Positions 1 to 62,015 are shown, numbered from the stretch's first letter. The stretch is 64,000 nt of DNA from Eledone cirrhosa (GCA_964016885.1 OZ024764.1:13082001-13146000); one strand, 5' to 3'. Translations and numbers: made by a program. Notes: generated from the letters alone by a model not told the origin.

Positions 1-662
1 CGCCTACACATTCACTTTACAGTGTGGGCTGGGTGTTTTTTTGCCATGGCGCCTACACATCCACTTTACAGTGTGGGCTGGGTGCTTTTTTGCCGTGGCG
101 CCTACACATCCACTTTACAGTGTGGGCTGGGTGCTTTTTTGCCGTGGCGCCTACACATCCACTTTACAGTGTGGGCTGGGTGCTTTTTTGCCGTGGCACC
201 TACACATCCACTTTACAGTGTGGGCTGGGTGCTTTTTTGCCGTGGCACCTACACATCCACTTTACAGTGTGGGCTGGGTGCTTTTTTGCCATGGCGCCTA
301 CACATTCACTTTACAGTGTGGGCTGGGTGCTTTTTTGCCGTGGCGCCTACACATCCACTTTACAGTGTGGGCTGGGTGCTTTTTTGCCGTGGCGCCTACA
401 CGTCCACTTTACAGTGTGGGCTGGGTGCTTTTTTGCCGTGGCGCCTACACGTCCACTTTACAGTGTGGGCTGGGTGCTTTTTTGCCGTGGCGCCTACACG
501 TCCACTTTACAGTGTGGGCTGGGTGCTTTTTTGCCGTGGCGCCTACACGTCCACTTTACAGTGTGGGCTGGGTGCTTTTTTGCCGTGGCGCCTACACGTC
601 CACTTTACAGTGTGGGCTGGGTGCTTTTTTGCCGTGGCACCTCCACGACCACCTTGCAGTGG
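1..662 (+). repeat. 49-bp minisatellite (~13 copies) amplified from the internal part of a dispersed element
   Basis: Unit cgcctacacatccactttacagtgtgggctgggtgcttttttgccgtgg recurs at 1, 50, 99 and onward. A single-copy form lies at ~5650-5715 and a near-identical array is on the minus strand at ~19895-20625. Confidence 0.95.
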
Positions 663-769
663 GAGGATATACATATATATGATATGTTGAATAAAATCAT
701 AATTAACTGATCATCCTGTATTTTCTTTTACCCAAAGCAAGGAACTTTTCAGCTCCCCCTCATAAAATA

Positions 770-925
770 ATTGTTCCTACTTTAGGCACAAGTGTATTAC
801 CCCAACAATTACCCCAGTGTATTACAGTTACTTTATTTTATCGACCCTGATCCCATAAGGATGAAAGATAAAGCTAACCTCGGCTGGATTTGAACTAAGA
901 ATGTAAAGGGCCATAGTGTGTAGCT
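770..925 (-). mobile_element. tRNA-derived SINE (abundant family A), partial
   Basis: Reverse complement of the gagttcaaatcc...gaggttaactttgcctttcatcc...gtcgataaaataaagtaccagt consensus that is seen many times in the window. Confidence 0.75.
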
Positions 926-1054
926 ATTAATGTTACTGTTGTTGTTGTTGATGTTGTTGCTAAACTATAAAGCAATATGTTCTGGTGTAGTCATGATTAG
1001 GGAAGGGGGGAGGGGGGGGGGTATGGAGCAGATAATCCTGAGTGTTGGAATACT

Positions 1055-1905
1055 CACACACATATATATATATATGTGTGTGTGTGTGTATATGTATATA
1101 TATATAGATATTTATATATACATATGTGTATATATATGTATATATAGAGGTATATATATATATATACACATATAGATATGCATATGTATATATATACACA
1201 TATGTATATATATATATATATATACACGTGTATTTATATATATACATATACATATGTGTATATATATATATACATGTGTGTGTATATATATATATATATA
1301 TATATATATATAAACGCATATATATATATATATATATATATATGCATTTATATATATATGTATACATAAATAAATATATATACTGTATATATATATATAT
1401 ATATATATATATATGTATACATATATAAGTATATATATATATATATATACATACATTATATATATATGTATATATATATATATATACACATATATACATA
1501 CTTACATATATATATATACTGTATATATATATATATATATATATGTATACATATATAAGTATATATATATATATATACATACATTATATATATATATATA
1601 TATACATACATTATATATATATATGTATATATATATATATATACACACATATATAGATACATATATATATATATATATATATACATATTTATATATATAC
1701 ATATATATATATATACATATACATACATATATATATATATATACATATACATACATATATATATATATATACATATACATACATATATATATATATACAT
1801 ATACATACATATATATATATATATATATATATATATATATATATATATATATATATAAGTATATATATATAGGTATATATATAAATGTACATATGTATAT
1901 ATATA
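1055..1905. repeat. (TA)n/(CA)n compound microsatellite
   Basis: Dinucleotide runs that produce the YI-repeat pseudo-ORFs. Confidence 0.95.
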
Positions 1906-57750: not shown

Positions 57751-60700
57751 AGCGTATGTAGCTATGTATTCCACAAAAAAGTACACCCCAAAGGGTGGTT
57801 TTACTGTTAGTATATTTAATAAATCCTAAATACAGATATAAAAAAGTAAAAAAATAATAATATATAAAAAAAAAAGAAAACAATAAAGGCCCTTAATTTC
57901 CGAAATTTTAAAAGATAAGGGATCTCAACTTCTGATGGAGTTGTAGAGGCACTGGCCTAACATTAGGCGTGCTTTGGTCTTTTTTTTTTTAAATCTAACA
58001 GAACCCATTTCTCTCCAGATCAGATTATAGTTGGTTTCTTCCAGAGAAAGAAAGTTAAAGGAAGAATTGAACCCCAGTACTCGACTGGTACTTTATTGAC
58101 CTTGAAAGGGTGAAAAGCATAGCTAATCTCAAGGGGATTTTAAGTCTATAGAATAGGAGGAAAAAATTATTTTAAAAATCCCAATTTGAGACATAAAAAA
58201 GTAATAAAATAATTTAAAAACAACAAGAAAAAAGTGCTTTGGTAATTTTTTTAAAAACTTGGTAGAGCCCATCCCTCACCAGAGAAAGATAGAGGAAGAA
58301 TCAACCCCCAGGACTTCAATGGTACTTATTTGTCGACCTTGACTAGATTTAAACTCAGAGACCACAGATTATCATGACTCATACACTGTTCTCTTTCCCG
58401 ACATTTGTACATTATTCTATGTACTATACATGCACCTTTGATGAGTTGTAGTGCACCTGAGCACTGTACACAATAATTTTCATTATATCATGTCTGATAC
58501 ACTGTTTACTTTCCTGACATTTGTACATTATTCTATGTATTATTCTATGTACCATACATGCACCTTTGATGAGTTGTAGTGCACCTGAACACTGTACACA
58601 ATAATTTCTCATTATCATTACCATATCATAGGTCTGGACAGGGGGGCTTAACAACAACAACAACCACAATGGCCCAGTTTGAAAGGGGGGTGGGGGGTAG
58701 GAGGACACACTGACTAATAAAGAGTTATAGCAGGGCTGGATTAACAATGAATGCAAAATAAACACATGTTTAGGGCATCAAAGGAAAAAGGGAAACCATT
58801 TTATTGAAACTGCACTGCATATGATAGATTGATGAATTAATACATGATGTTAGGGTGTGAAGTGTCAGAAGTTGTAGAGAGAGAGAGAGAATGCAACAAT
58901 AAATCGATGCATGTTATTGTGTGCAATATGGTCCTTGTTGGCGAGAGAGAAGCATGGATCACTCAGTAATTAAGACAGTCGTTAGACAAACAAATTATTT
59001 GAGTTAGGTATACAGGAGAAACACTGGCCTGAGTTTACAAAAAAGAATTTTAAAAAGGAAAAAAATAAAAAACAGAAAAGAGTGGCCTTAACTTTTGAAT
59101 GAATTGTTGGGACAGTGTCCTCACATATGGCATATCTTTGATACCTGGTGGAACCAATCTATTTTGAGGTTGTTCGTGGTAGCTAGACCTGTTAGAAATA
59201 GCAGTGAGAGAGTCCTAGTCCTTGTTAGGGGATCATTTTAGAAGGAAAAACTTTGATGTAAAAACTGTGATTCAATGGCAAGCAATGATGTTGACCTGTT
59301 GTTCTTTTTGTATTCCTGTCACTGTTGTTCAGAGTGGGGTTAGTCCAGTGTAAGGTCCTTCTTCAAGTAAAAAAAAGTCCAAGTCCAGGCATCACTTGAT
59401 CTAAATGACTTTCATATGTATTGGATGAGCATGGCCTTGTCTTTTTTTTTTTTTTCTGCAGCCTATGCAAAAAAGTCTTTGGTAGAGCTAAAAAGTTTGT
59501 GTTACCCATGTGTGAGAAAAAGGTCGAGGGATGGCAATTCTTGAAACCGAGATGCAGCCATTATGTATGTGTGTATGAAAGCATGTATGTATGAGCCAAT
59601 GAGTTAGACATTTACATGGTAGCGACACCTGTTAGAAATAGCAGCCAAATCTCCCTCATATCACAACCTATTCTTTCTTATGTTTGCATATGTATGAATA
59701 TATGTTTGCATATGTATGAATATATATTTACGTATGTATATATGTATGCATGTATATATATATATATATATATATATGTATGCATGTATATATGTATGTA
59801 TGTATGTATGCATGTATAAAATCTTTTCCTGGGTCCTGTATTTTCGTTGCTCTAGTGATGCGGCTGGACTGCCGACCGCTATATCTGATTTGCTAAGCTG
59901 TCTGAACATAATGTTATTACTCTGGGGTCTTTCCTCATCTGAGTGCTCAAGCTACAGACCGATTATGCATTCGTTAGCTTGGCCGTGTTCTAAAGCTTTG
60001 TTAATGCTGTACTAAAATTTATATATATATATATATGTATGTATGCATATATGTATGTATATATAGATGTATGTATATATTTGTCCGGTCACTCTTGAGT
60101 GCTACTGGTAACATGTAACCCAGTACAACCTGTCGCATGGTTGGGTCATCGGCGACTAAACCGGCAACCCCACCAAGTTTACTTAGTGAGGAGGGTGATT
60201 TTGGACACCCTGCAAGACAAAAAACAAAACCTGACAAAGAGCAGAAGAACTCATAAGAATCAACGGCCATCCGAAATTGTGTAAATATGTATATACACAT
60301 GTACCACGCAGTTAAACCACTGGGAGTGAAGGACCCCTAGCCTTTGTCAGGGCATTCTTCTAGGAGAAGGCAACTCAGAAAACTGGGATAACTCCGATAT
60401 AAAACCTGCAGCTCAGTAGTTACCGATGATGTTGATCTTTTCTCCTTTTCAGGTTATAGCTACTGTCGCTCAGAGAGTGGGATTGGCTCAGTGCACAGTC
60501 TTTCCTCACTTCAAAAAATATCTTCATGCACAGGCATTGCACGATAGAATTAATTAATAATTATTAATAATGGTTTATCATGCAATGGCCATACTCGATA
60601 ACGAGGAAGCAGCCATTATATATATATGTATGGAGATATATATATATATGTATGGAGATATATATATATATATGTATGCATGTATATATATATATATGTA

Positions 60701-60884
60701 AGTATGTATGCATGAGCCAATACATGTTTCTACTCTAGGCACAAAGCCAGCAATTTGAAAAGGAGGAGATTAAATCGACCCCAGTGTATTACTGGTGCTT
60801 TATTTATTGACCCCATCAGAATGCAAAACATTAGGCAAAACTAACCTAAATATCTGTAATAACAGATATTTACTGCAGCTGAGT

Positions 60885-61030
60885 GAAGGTGCATGGCGAA
60901 TGGTTAGAGCATTGGGCTTGCAATCGGGAGGTTGTGAGTTTGATTCTCGGAACGAGTGATGCATTAGGTCTTTGAGCAAGACACTTTATTTTCACGTTGT
61001 TCCAGTTTACTCAGCCGTAGAAATGTGTTG
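60885..61030 (+). mobile_element. CORE-type tRNA SINE (family B)
   Basis: ggtgcatggcgaatggttagagcattgggcttgcaatcgggaggttgtgagtttgattc...ttgagcaagacacttta. Confidence 0.75.
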
Positions 61031-61054
61031 TGATGTCACTGGTGTCAAGCTGTA

Positions 61055-62015
61055 TCATGTAGGTGTCAAGACAAAAATCACCCAGTCGACACTGTAAAGT
61101 GGTCATGTAGGTGTTACGAGAAAAAGTACCCAGTCCACACAGTAAACTGGTCACGTAGGTGTCAAGACAAAAAGCACCCAGCATACACTGTAAAGTAGTC
61201 GTGTAGGTGTCACAACAAAAATCACCCAGTCCACACTGTAAAGTGGTCATGTAGGTGTCAAGACAAAAAGCAACCAGCACACACTGTAAAGTGATCATGA
61301 AGGTGTCAAGACAAAAAGCAACCAGTCCACACTGTAAAGTGGTCATGAAGGTGTCAAGACAAAAAGCAACCAGTCCACACTGTAAAGTGGTCATGTAGGT
61401 GTCACAACAAAAATCACCCAGTCCACACTGTAAAGTGGTCATGTAGGTGTTACGACAAAAAACAGCCAGTCCACACAGTAAACTGGTCATGGAGGTGTCA
61501 AGACAAAAAGCACCCAGTCCACGCAGTAAACTGGTCATGTAGGTGTCAAGACAAAAAGCACCCAGCATACACTGTAAAGTAGTCGTGTAGGTGTCACGAC
61601 AAAAATCACCCAGTCGACACTGTAAAGTGGTCATGTAGGTGTCAAGACAAAAAGCAACCAGCACACACTGTAAAGTGATCATGAAGGTGTCAAGACAAAA
61701 AGCACCCAGCATACACTGTAAAGTAGTCGTGTAGGTGTCACGACAAAAATCACCCAGTCGACACTGTAAAGTGGTCATGTAGGTGTCACAACAAAAAACA
61801 CCCAGTCCACACTGTAAAGTGGTCATGTAGGTGTCAAGGCAAAAAGCACCCAGTCCACACTGTAAATGTGGTTGGTATTAGGAAGGGCATCCAGCTGTAG
61901 AAAACCAGGCAGAAACAGTCCTATATGAGCGAGACACGGTCACCTGGCCCAACTTGCCTCTAAATAGGGACAAACCCGTCTAACCCATGCTAGCGTGGAA
62001 GATGGACATTAAACG
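61055..62015 (-). repeat. Dispersed element with diverged 48-bp array (~17 copies)
   Basis: Unit cacactgtaaagtggtcatgtaggtgtcaagacaaaaagcacccagtc. The parent 5' part is at 61865-62015. Confidence 0.9.

What the first reader, a model, noticed from the sequence alone, without database searches (positions are those of the whole stretch)
1..62015. Systematic birth of minisatellites by in-place amplification of internal TE slices
Seen: at least 12 arrays are tandem copies of a 45-165-bp slice of a mobile element, often with the rest of the parent still attached in register. They are the SINE head (45 bp, 31165), SINE body (99 bp at 2400; 165 bp at 6529), SINE-like tail (65 bp, 17398), MITE interior (72 bp, 24491 and 28490), RTE-like ORF2 (65 bp at 41700; 141 bp at 47553), CR1-like tail (61 bp, 36290 and 45295) and the 48/49-bp family (1, 12245, 19895, 61055). 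Unamplified parents occur in the same window (5650, 5974, 56450, 58010). Inference: because unrelated TE classes are all affected, a host-level process such as microhomology-primed slippage, rolling-circle eccDNA reinsertion or repair-associated re-replication may be driving genome expansion here.
Basis: partly seen in the sequence, partly recalled or inferred. Interest (0 to 1): 0.7.

Follow-up and report, generated by a model that had tools for sequence, protein, structure and literature searches.

The report
Transposon-derived minisatellites in octopus DNA
In this stretch of octopus-type DNA many short pieces of jumping genes have been copied head-to-tail into minisatellites, which is real but is a known process, and the stretch does not show that the host targets jumping genes in particular.

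Summary
The arrays are real. All 14 named arrays exist (13.9 kb, 22% of the window) in octopod DNA that is 51% tandem repeat. Their variants are transition-rich and shared between units, unlike sequencing error. The 65-bp and 141/156-bp units are LINE ORF2 slices by protein search. The 14 arrays collapse to about 9 births: eight belong to three families that share one junction each (48/49-bp SINE-like, 72-bp MITE, 61-bp CR1-like), which fits arrays carried inside mobile copies. The 'unamplified parent' at 56450 already has two units. Two arrays (12244, 47552) have no parent attached, and the 17545 unit is element plus flank. Non-TE DNA and microsatellites are amplified too. The TE excess is modest and depends on the null (p 0.02-0.6). 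Junction microhomology is 0-4 bp, near chance. Higher-order periods and neighbour similarity point to stepwise local turnover rather than one rolling-circle event. TE-derived minisatellites are described in humans, squamates and bivalves; four searches found no octopod report. Verdict: new member of a known kind, notable for density. Interest 0.3.

The parts
1..661 (-). 49-bp array (>=13 units), SINE-like family B, subfamily B1; 3' part lies outside the window
   Evidence: 3 unit types identical to array 19904, 5 shared polymorphic columns, p 6e-5
2334..2679 (-). SINE-A copy with a 99-bp slice in 2.8 copies; 3' part attached, 5' end missing
5575..5712 (-). Family B copy with one unit plus 13 bp of a second; same 5' end as arrays 1 and 19904
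   Evidence: 90% to B1 units
5970..6200 (.). Single-unit MITE, parent of the 72-bp arrays; 17-bp terminal inverted match that begins with TTAA
6505..8245 (-). SINE-A-related element (SINE-D) with a 162-167-bp slice x10, head and tail both attached; 3-unit higher-order period
   Evidence: microhomology 0
12244..13200 (-). 48-bp family B array (~19 units), no parent flank on either side; 5-unit higher-order period
13973..14556 (-).
17399..18501 (+). 65-bp array: 39 bp of a putative SINE tail plus 26 bp of flank, interleaved with a 149-bp parent duplication; TE status unverified
19892..20790 (+). Family B1 element: 49-bp array (~15 units) at the 5' end, then 3' part and (GAT)n tail
22849..23529 (.). 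60-bp then 44-bp array with no homolog in the window (non-TE control)
23603..27417 (.). Old satellite family re-amplified as 22-, 49- and 33/71-bp arrays; no TE evidence; interrupted by the MITE at a TTAA
24487..25434 (.). Complete MITE with an internal 72-bp array x11
   Evidence: microhomology 1
28490..29344 (.). Second MITE copy with the same 72-bp unit, same junction and same terminal-versus-inner variant order; right end missing
31168..32245 (+). SINE-A head (first 45 bp) x20 followed by the complete SINE; 5-unit higher-order period
34595..35872 (+).
36144..36686 (-). CR1-like 3' fragment with a 61-bp array x6, inserted in an RT-encoding LINE relic
   Evidence: CR1 label rests on a recalled motif
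36968..37543 (+).
   Evidence: (E 0.035)
41515..45176 (-). Non-LTR ORF2 C-terminus (RTE type) with an internal 65-bp slice x50, reading frame continuing on both sides
   Evidence: HMM 621-718, E 1.9e-37, and 696-779, E 1.2e-12; microhomology 2
45190..46354 (+). Second CR1-like fragment with the same 61-bp unit x12 and the same 4-bp junction
47552..48612 (-). RTE-type ORF2 slice array: 2 x 156 bp then 5 x 141 bp (15-bp deletion); no parent flank; sits in the degenerate 3' end of a C2H2 zinc-finger gene
56295..56559 (-). Family B2 copy with two units plus 7 bp; not an unamplified parent
58010..58148 (-). Diverged single relative of the 165-bp unit
61055..62014 (+). Family B2 element: 48-bp array x17 at the 5' end, then 3' part and tail

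Best explanation
This is a tandem-duplication-prone stretch of an octopod genome in which three ordinary processes overlap. (1) Birth: a 45-200-bp segment is duplicated at a junction with 0-4 bp of microhomology; it usually lies in a TE because TEs are roughly half of the non-tandem DNA. Shown: the junctions. Inferred: the repair or slippage route. (2) Spread: when the duplication sits in a source copy, the whole element carries the array to new sites, giving the same unit and junction at several loci (family B, the 72-bp MITE, the 61-bp CR1-like element). Shown: shared junctions and variants with different outer flanks. Inferred: transposition rather than local DNA duplication or conversion. 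(3) Growth: each array then expands and homogenises locally by unequal exchange, slippage or conversion, giving higher-order periods, polar blocks and shortened units (156 to 141, 149 to 65, 60 to 44). Shown: the patterns. Inferred: the mechanism. No TE-specific host pathway is needed and no function is implied.
For: 51% of the window is tandem; six complex arrays lack TE evidence. Background TE share is 35-49% in-window and 45-62% of non-tandem DNA in O. vulgaris. 5 of 7 family B copies that span the slice have >=2 units, 2 of 3 MITE copies and 2 of 2 CR1-like copies carry the array, against 1 of 20 SINE-A copies for each SINE-A slice (counted). Arrays 1 and 19904 share 5 polymorphic columns (p 6e-5). 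Both MITE arrays have the parental variant in first and last units and a derived variant inside, the fixed order reported for the Donax MITE DTC84 (PMC3879986, abstract). The 61-bp array changes only the last ~9 codons of the CR1-like frame, so a source copy could tolerate it. Neighbours are more alike than chance in 3 of 15 arrays (P 0.001-0.002) and lag minima fall at 5, 5 and 3 units in three others.
Against: Two of three matched in-window tests give a nominal TE excess (p 0.022 and 0.039), as does the classified-TE-only share of O. vulgaris (p 0.019). Shared polymorphism is not significant for the MITE pair (p 0.15) or the CR1-like pair (p 0.25), so independent duplication at the same 4-bp microhomology stays possible for the 61-bp unit. 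No convincing target-site duplication was found around the array-bearing retroelements (15 intervals tested). 12 of 15 arrays show no significant neighbour effect. One window only, and no TE library.
Confidence: 0.62

Rival explanations
1. One reading: a host pathway preferentially amplifies internal TE slices in place, independently at each locus, for example by microhomology-primed slippage or repair-linked re-replication aimed at TE chromatin.
For: Six arrays keep both parent flanks; four singletons are independent births; SINE, LINE and DNA-transposon classes are all hit; nominal excess p 0.02-0.04 in two matched tests.
Against: 14 arrays are ~9 births; non-TE DNA and microsatellites are amplified as well; the excess disappears under other reasonable nulls (p 0.13-0.64); microhomology is near chance.
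Confidence: 0.15
2. Arrays are started during retrotransposition: reverse transcriptase slips or re-primes near the 5' junction, or 5' truncation falls inside an array-bearing transcript.
For: In the four one-flank SINE-like births (99 bp, 45 bp, family B, 17545) the attached side is the 3' tail side each time. Human TE-derived repeats are commoner in younger families and 136 are partial Alu copies at the 5' end of a full Alu (PMC3389668).
Against: Cannot explain the MITE array or the non-TE arrays; four events are too few (chance 1 in 16 for this side); higher-order periods need later DNA-level turnover.
Confidence: 0.2
3. The paired arrays were copied by local segmental or inverted DNA duplication or ectopic gene conversion rather than by transposition.
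For: Pairs lie 4-20 kb apart and two are inverted; a SINE-A with ~85 bp of its 3' flank recurs inverted at 29.6 and 34.9 kb; SINE-A/D strands form 5 runs over 16 loci (P 0.046).
Against: Homology between paired arrays stops at element ends; the two CR1-like copies have different 5' truncation points and different hosts.
Confidence: 0.2
4. Rolling-circle amplification of small extrachromosomal circles, followed by reinsertion.
For: Two arrays are orphans (12244; 47552, which begins with the end of a unit and ends with its start).
Against: Reinsertion would not restore both flanks in register in six arrays; one round from a monomer circle would not give polar blocks, 156-then-141 order or multi-unit periods. 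Orphans can also arise by deletion of flanks.
Confidence: 0.08
5. Assembly or polishing artefact that multiplied repeat units.
For: No raw reads were available; copy numbers in long AT-rich tandem regions can be mis-assembled.
Against: Across 15 arrays variants are 117 transitions, 67 transversions and 31 gap columns, and 118 of 215 variant alleles recur in two or more units; identical junctions occur at separate loci on opposite strands.
Confidence: 0.03

Closest known systems
Human TE-derived minisatellites (Ahmed and Liang 2012, PMC3389668; main text read)
   Same: Slices of SINEs, LINEs and other TEs in tandem; single-locus and multi-locus classes; arrays pre-existing in a source family (LTR12, L1PA) spread by transposition; most junctions lack a 5-20-bp flanking repeat; growth by local duplication.
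   Different: Human arrays are mostly 2-3 units and 0.32% of the genome; here arrays have 3-50 units and fill 22% of a 64-kb window.
SINE-derived satellites (sSat) of squamates (Vassetzky et al. 2023, PMC10702118; abstract, Squam3 results and Discussion read)
   Same: Tandem SINE portions with a longer terminal unit that runs to the SINE end, locus-specific alternating subvariants, extra non-SINE sequence in some units, one unit shared by many loci.
   Different: SINEs only in that study, with subtelomeric preference; here LINE ORF2 and MITE slices occur too, and chromosomal position is unknown.
Tandem-repeat-containing MITEs and Helentrons of bivalves (DTC84, PMC3879986; Cg_HINE, PMC7492417; abstracts only)
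   Same: Molluscan non-autonomous elements act as cassettes that carry internal arrays of variable copy number with a fixed order of variants.
   Different: DTC84 has up to five repeats and an AA target duplication; the element here has TTAA-bounded inverted ends, 11 units, and a single-unit form in the same window.
LINE ORF2-derived satellites (chicken HinfI/CR1, Phodopus PROsat; passages of review PMC9659126)
   Same: Satellite units that contain part of a LINE ORF2 or 3' end.
   Different: Here the parent frame is still attached on both sides of a 50-copy array, so the birth junction can be read directly.

Membership tests
TE-derived minisatellite (criteria of PMC3389668) | Unit >=20 bp and >=2 copies | tested here: met
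   14 of 14 named arrays
TE-derived minisatellite (criteria of PMC3389668) | Unit >=70% similar to a TE, or overlapping a TE by one period | tested here: met
   13 of 14 by dispersed homologs, attached flanks or ORF2 protein match; 17545 not shown. In-window copies stood in for a library consensus.
TE-derived minisatellite (criteria of PMC3389668) | Filters of that study: unit identity >=95% and GC >=40% | tested here: inconclusive
   TRF match 86-97% among the named arrays; unit GC not computed; these are study filters, not biology
Non-LTR retrotransposon ORF2, RTE type (65-bp and 141/156-bp parents) | Homology to endonuclease + reverse-transcriptase ORF2 C-terminus | tested here: met
   157 hits at E<=0.01, many with PF00078/PF14529/PF03372; 143 of 150 hits of the 156-bp unit match an HMM of 16 named ORF2s, 0 when shuffled
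Non-LTR retrotransposon ORF2, RTE type (65-bp and 141/156-bp parents) | Placement in the RTE clade by RT phylogeny | not tested
   RT core absent from these fragments; the clade name rests on a recalled C-terminal motif
CR1 clade LINE (61-bp parent) | ORF2 C-terminal homology to CR1 elements | tested here: inconclusive
   No Pfam hit; Atlas gave only hypothetical proteins with recognition below threshold; label recalled. A shared 3' end with a simple-repeat tail recurs at five loci.
tRNA-derived SINE (SINE-A/D) | Pol III A and B boxes in the head | tested here: inconclusive
   Exact B-box-like motif in 2 of 4 SINE-A/D copies tested, visible in most aligned copies; the A-box pattern was too loose to count; ARAGORN found 0 tRNAs; the 150 of 405 Rfam rows shown were microsatellite noise
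tRNA-derived SINE (SINE-A/D) | Short, dispersed, non-coding, simple-repeat 3' tail | tested here: met
   66 BLAST hits, 20 copies spanning the head, ~190-230 bp, (ATT)n-type tails
tRNA-derived SINE (SINE-A/D) | Target-site duplication | tested here: not met
   Longest flanking repeats 4-6 bp in AT-rich DNA for 4 of 4 SINE-A/D intervals
MITE (72-bp parent) | Terminal inverted repeats, no coding capacity, target-site duplication | tested here: met
   17-bp inverted match at 5970-6200 and TTAA at both ends of two copies; piggyBac-like by recalled TTAA/CCC rule
SINE-derived satellite (sSat type, PMC10702118) | Longer terminal unit continuing to the SINE end | tested here: met
   2406, 6529, 19904, 31168, 61055; not 12244
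SINE-derived satellite (sSat type, PMC10702118) | Many loci genome-wide, subtelomeric bias | not testable with these tools
   One window; no telomeric hexamer dimers in it
Microhomology-initiated minisatellite (5-10-bp flanking repeats, as summarised in PMC3389668) | 5-10-bp direct repeat flanking the founding unit | tested here: not met
   0 of 6 scorable TE junctions reach 5 bp: 1, 4, 2, 0, 0 and 0-3

The most novel reading that the evidence does not exclude
Octopods, genome-wide and not only here, run an unusually high rate of 45-200-bp tandem duplication, and array-bearing source elements of three TE classes (a SINE-like element, a TTAA MITE and a CR1-like LINE that tolerates an array at the very end of ORF2) seed thousands of multi-locus minisatellites. 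In this window the named arrays alone added 12.9 kb, 20% of its length; at that scale TE-borne minisatellites would be an unrecognised major driver of the 2.7-5 Gb octopod genome sizes, mis-scored as TE or simple repeat.
Probability: 0.2. Interest if true: 0.6.

Novelty: new member of a known kind. Interest (0 to 1): 0.3.

Why it matters
The process is known, so the value lies in density and legibility. One window holds single-unit parents, 2-unit intermediates, long arrays, shortened units and orphans, so steps in satellite birth can be read at base resolution. If the density holds genome-wide it affects repeat annotation and genome-size accounting in octopods and offers many junctions for testing how minisatellites start, which the human survey left unexplained for 94% of cases (PMC3389668).

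Tried and rejected
Rfam scan: the 150 of 405 rows shown were sub-threshold microsatellite or hairpin matches; ARAGORN: none. Pfam on 11 LINE-like fragments gave only sub-cutoff RVT_1 (E 0.0014) and DUF6451 (E 0.005) in the 35.9-36.9 kb relic; the PEX11, PlyB_C and other rows were treated as chance. The word-indexed search found nothing for the 156-bp unit; the full HMMER search did. Atlas on the CR1-like fragment was uninformative. The inverted-repeat tool was swamped by (AT)n and was replaced by masked BLAST. Automatic microhomology values were discarded where a terminal unit is truncated or only one side was scored (99-bp array, 196-bp array, 28500, 22849, 39875, 36968); the 99-bp value was read by eye; the two 61-bp arrays were counted once. 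Target-site search gave nothing usable apart from TTAA at the MITE. Counting all 14 named arrays as independent (14/20) was rejected as pseudoreplication. The 84-bp zinc-finger repeat was left out of all counts as coding. A subtelomeric position could not be shown. No public collection on hand holds eukaryotic genomes, so copies elsewhere in this or other octopod genomes stayed unchecked; the metagenome and viral contig collections were not searched. Supplements of PMC3389668 and PMC10702118 were not read and may hold closer parallels.

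
Full report
Source. The window is octopod DNA. An intronless M4 protease at 32742-34562 has octopus proteins as its best named hits (69% to O. sinensis, 62-63% to O. bimaculoides and Argonauta), and a C2H2 zinc-finger ORF lies at 46701-47540. The species was not determined. 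TRF covers 32,603 of 64,000 bp (51%); 13,256 bp is simple or low-complexity.

Observation. They look like real evolved DNA: in 15 arrays split into units (13 of the 14 named, all but 2406, plus two unnamed) there are 117 transitions, 67 transversions and 31 gap columns, and 118 of 215 variant alleles recur in two or more units. Raw reads were not available, so copy numbers are unverified.

Parents. The 65-bp array at 41701 is the clearest case. The right flank matches non-LTR ORF2 proteins (157 hits, best 72% identity), and an HMM of 16 named ORF2s covers positions 621-718 on one side (E 1.9e-37) and 696-779 on the other (E 1.2e-12), overlapping by one unit. The 156-bp unit at 48429 found 197 proteins at E<=0.001; 143 of the 150 listed match the same HMM, 0 after shuffling. 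A profile from 99 of the 150 matches only positions 48-96 of 176 there, with nothing upstream or downstream in the flanks, so this array is an orphan; it sits in decayed zinc-finger sequence. 'RTE' and 'CR1' as clade names rest on recalled motifs; the CR1 label got no support from Pfam or the Atlas. SINE-A is a ~190-230-bp family with 66 BLAST hits and 20 copies spanning the head, a B-box-like motif and simple tails. The MITE has TTAA-bounded inverted ends. The 17545 unit is 39 bp of putative element plus 26 bp of flank, apparently a deletion product of a 149-bp duplication, with no homolog beyond its locus. Both flanks are attached in 6 of 14 arrays, one in 5, none in 2, and one is cut by the window edge.

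Independence. Eight of the 14 arrays fall into three families with one junction each. In family B, 5 of 7 copies that span the slice have two or more units. The supposed parent at 56450 has two units, the second 94% identical to a 61055 unit; 5650 has one unit plus 13 bp and the same 5' end as arrays 1 and 19904. Arrays 1 and 19904 share three identical unit types and five polymorphic columns (p 6e-5). The two MITE arrays share the junction and the order parental-derived-parental. The two 61-bp arrays share the junction and one identical unit type but sit in different hosts with different 5' ends. Against this reading, shared polymorphism is not significant for the MITE (p 0.15) or CR1-like pair (p 0.25), and family B could be three births rather than one (best unit identities between subfamilies 77-86%). 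My count is about 9 births. By contrast each SINE-A slice occurs in 1 of 20 copies, so those are true singletons. The 61-bp array leaves the reading frame intact until its last ~9 codons, so a source element could carry it; this is inference.

Chance. TE share of the non-tandem background, with one unit per array added back, is 0.35 (dispersed homolog in the window), 0.40 (plus protein-supported LINE pieces) or 0.49 (plus foldback candidates). Matched tests give 9/18 p 0.13, 12/18 p 0.022 and 13/18 p 0.039. Adding five microsatellite-derived higher-order arrays gives p 0.17-0.30; internal slices only, p 0.15-0.20. Against O. vulgaris (TE 40.19%, unknown 15.12%, tandem classes 10.9%; supplement of PMC13282606) p is 0.019 for classified TEs alone and 0.27-0.64 with unknown repeats included. 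In-window shares undercount TEs with no second copy nearby, event classification was by hand, and five of the TE events come from the SINE-A/D group. A small excess is possible; a TE-specific process is not shown.

Mechanism. Exact microhomology at the six scorable TE junctions is 1, 4, 2, 0, 0 and 0 (3 on one reading of the 99-bp junction), against a null mean of 0.73 each: P 0.18, or 0.036. None reaches 5 bp. Microhomology-primed slippage is therefore not the general start. Later growth is stepwise and local: neighbours are more alike than chance in 3 of 15 arrays (P 0.001-0.002), lag minima fall at 5 units in 12244 and 31168 and 3 units in 6529, and units shorten within arrays (156 to 141, 149 to 65, 60 to 44). 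This fits unequal exchange, conversion or multi-unit slippage and argues against one rolling-circle round, which stays possible for the two orphans. In the four one-flank SINE-like births the tail side is the one kept, a hint of retrotransposition-linked origin or truncation, too few to test.

Known systems. Ahmed and Liang (PMC3389668; parts 1-3 of 4 read, no supplements) found 7,276 TE-derived human minisatellites (23%), including multi-locus arrays spread by LTR12 and L1PA and local growth. Vassetzky et al. (PMC10702118; abstract, Squam3 results, Discussion) describe SINE-slice satellites with attached terminal units and alternating subvariants. Bivalve MITEs and Helentrons carry internal arrays (PMC3879986, PMC7492417; abstracts). 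A review lists LINE ORF2-derived satellites (PMC9659126; 12 of 20 passages). For octopods I read parts 1-2 of 3 and the supplement of PMC13282606 and passages of PMC9795677 and PMC6279123 (simple repeats are 14.7% of O. minor); what I read does not treat TE-derived arrays. Four searches listed no cephalopod paper on them; the library lacks most subscription journals.

Verdict. Real arrays, mostly correct parent calls, overstated independence and mechanism. It is a new member of a known kind, unusual for density and for showing successive stages side by side. Interest 0.3; the genome-wide reading has probability about 0.2 and would deserve 0.6.

Noticed in passing
window 32742-34562 (+): Intronless M4/thermolysin-family metalloprotease (Pfam Peptidase_M4, M4_C, FTP). 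Best named hits are octopod 'elastases' (59-69%), then scallops (38-41%), then bacteria (32-39%). Looks like an old bacteria-to-mollusc transfer expanded in octopods; no tree was built. One paper search gave nothing relevant.
   Followed up: partly
window 46701-47540 (+), 47552-48730: C2H2 zinc-finger ORF with about nine fingers. Degenerate finger sequence continues on both sides of the orphan 141/156-bp array, so the array landed in the decayed 3' end of the gene.
   Followed up: partly
window 29500-29800 (-) and 34790-35065 (+): A SINE-A plus ~85 bp of its 3' flank recurs in inverted orientation on the two sides of the protease gene: 3' transduction or a small inverted duplication.
   Followed up: partly
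window 762-60719: SINE-A/D loci are all on the minus strand up to 29.8 kb and mostly plus after it (5 runs over 16 loci, P 0.046); unexplained.
   Followed up: partly
window 9055-9892 and 49477-50574: Two complex foldback structures with internal direct duplications, arms 78-100% identical; candidates for template-switch rearrangements or foldback elements.
   Followed up: no
window 13274-13896 (+): Broken retroelement C-terminus; Atlas neighbours include molluscan reverse-transcriptase zinc-binding clusters. Resembles R4/Dong-type elements from recall.
   Followed up: partly
window 39435-39624, 39688-39732, 40142-40275, 55575-55805, 62920-63117: A five-copy palindromic family of up to ~230 bp, always set in (AT)n; probable TA-targeting MITE, none amplified.
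   Followed up: no
window 46157-46346 and 58370-58615: The 3' UTR of the CR1-like family is itself duplicated in tandem at two loci (~115 bp).
   Followed up: partly
window 9915-10120 and 10345-10550: A ~200-bp direct duplication of non-TE-looking DNA with a 430-bp offset.
   Followed up: no
window 15836-16745, 8804-8942, 21690-22170, 4650-4955, 18688-18997: Microsatellites re-amplified as 36-88-bp higher-order units, showing that the same unit sizes arise without any TE.
   Followed up: partly
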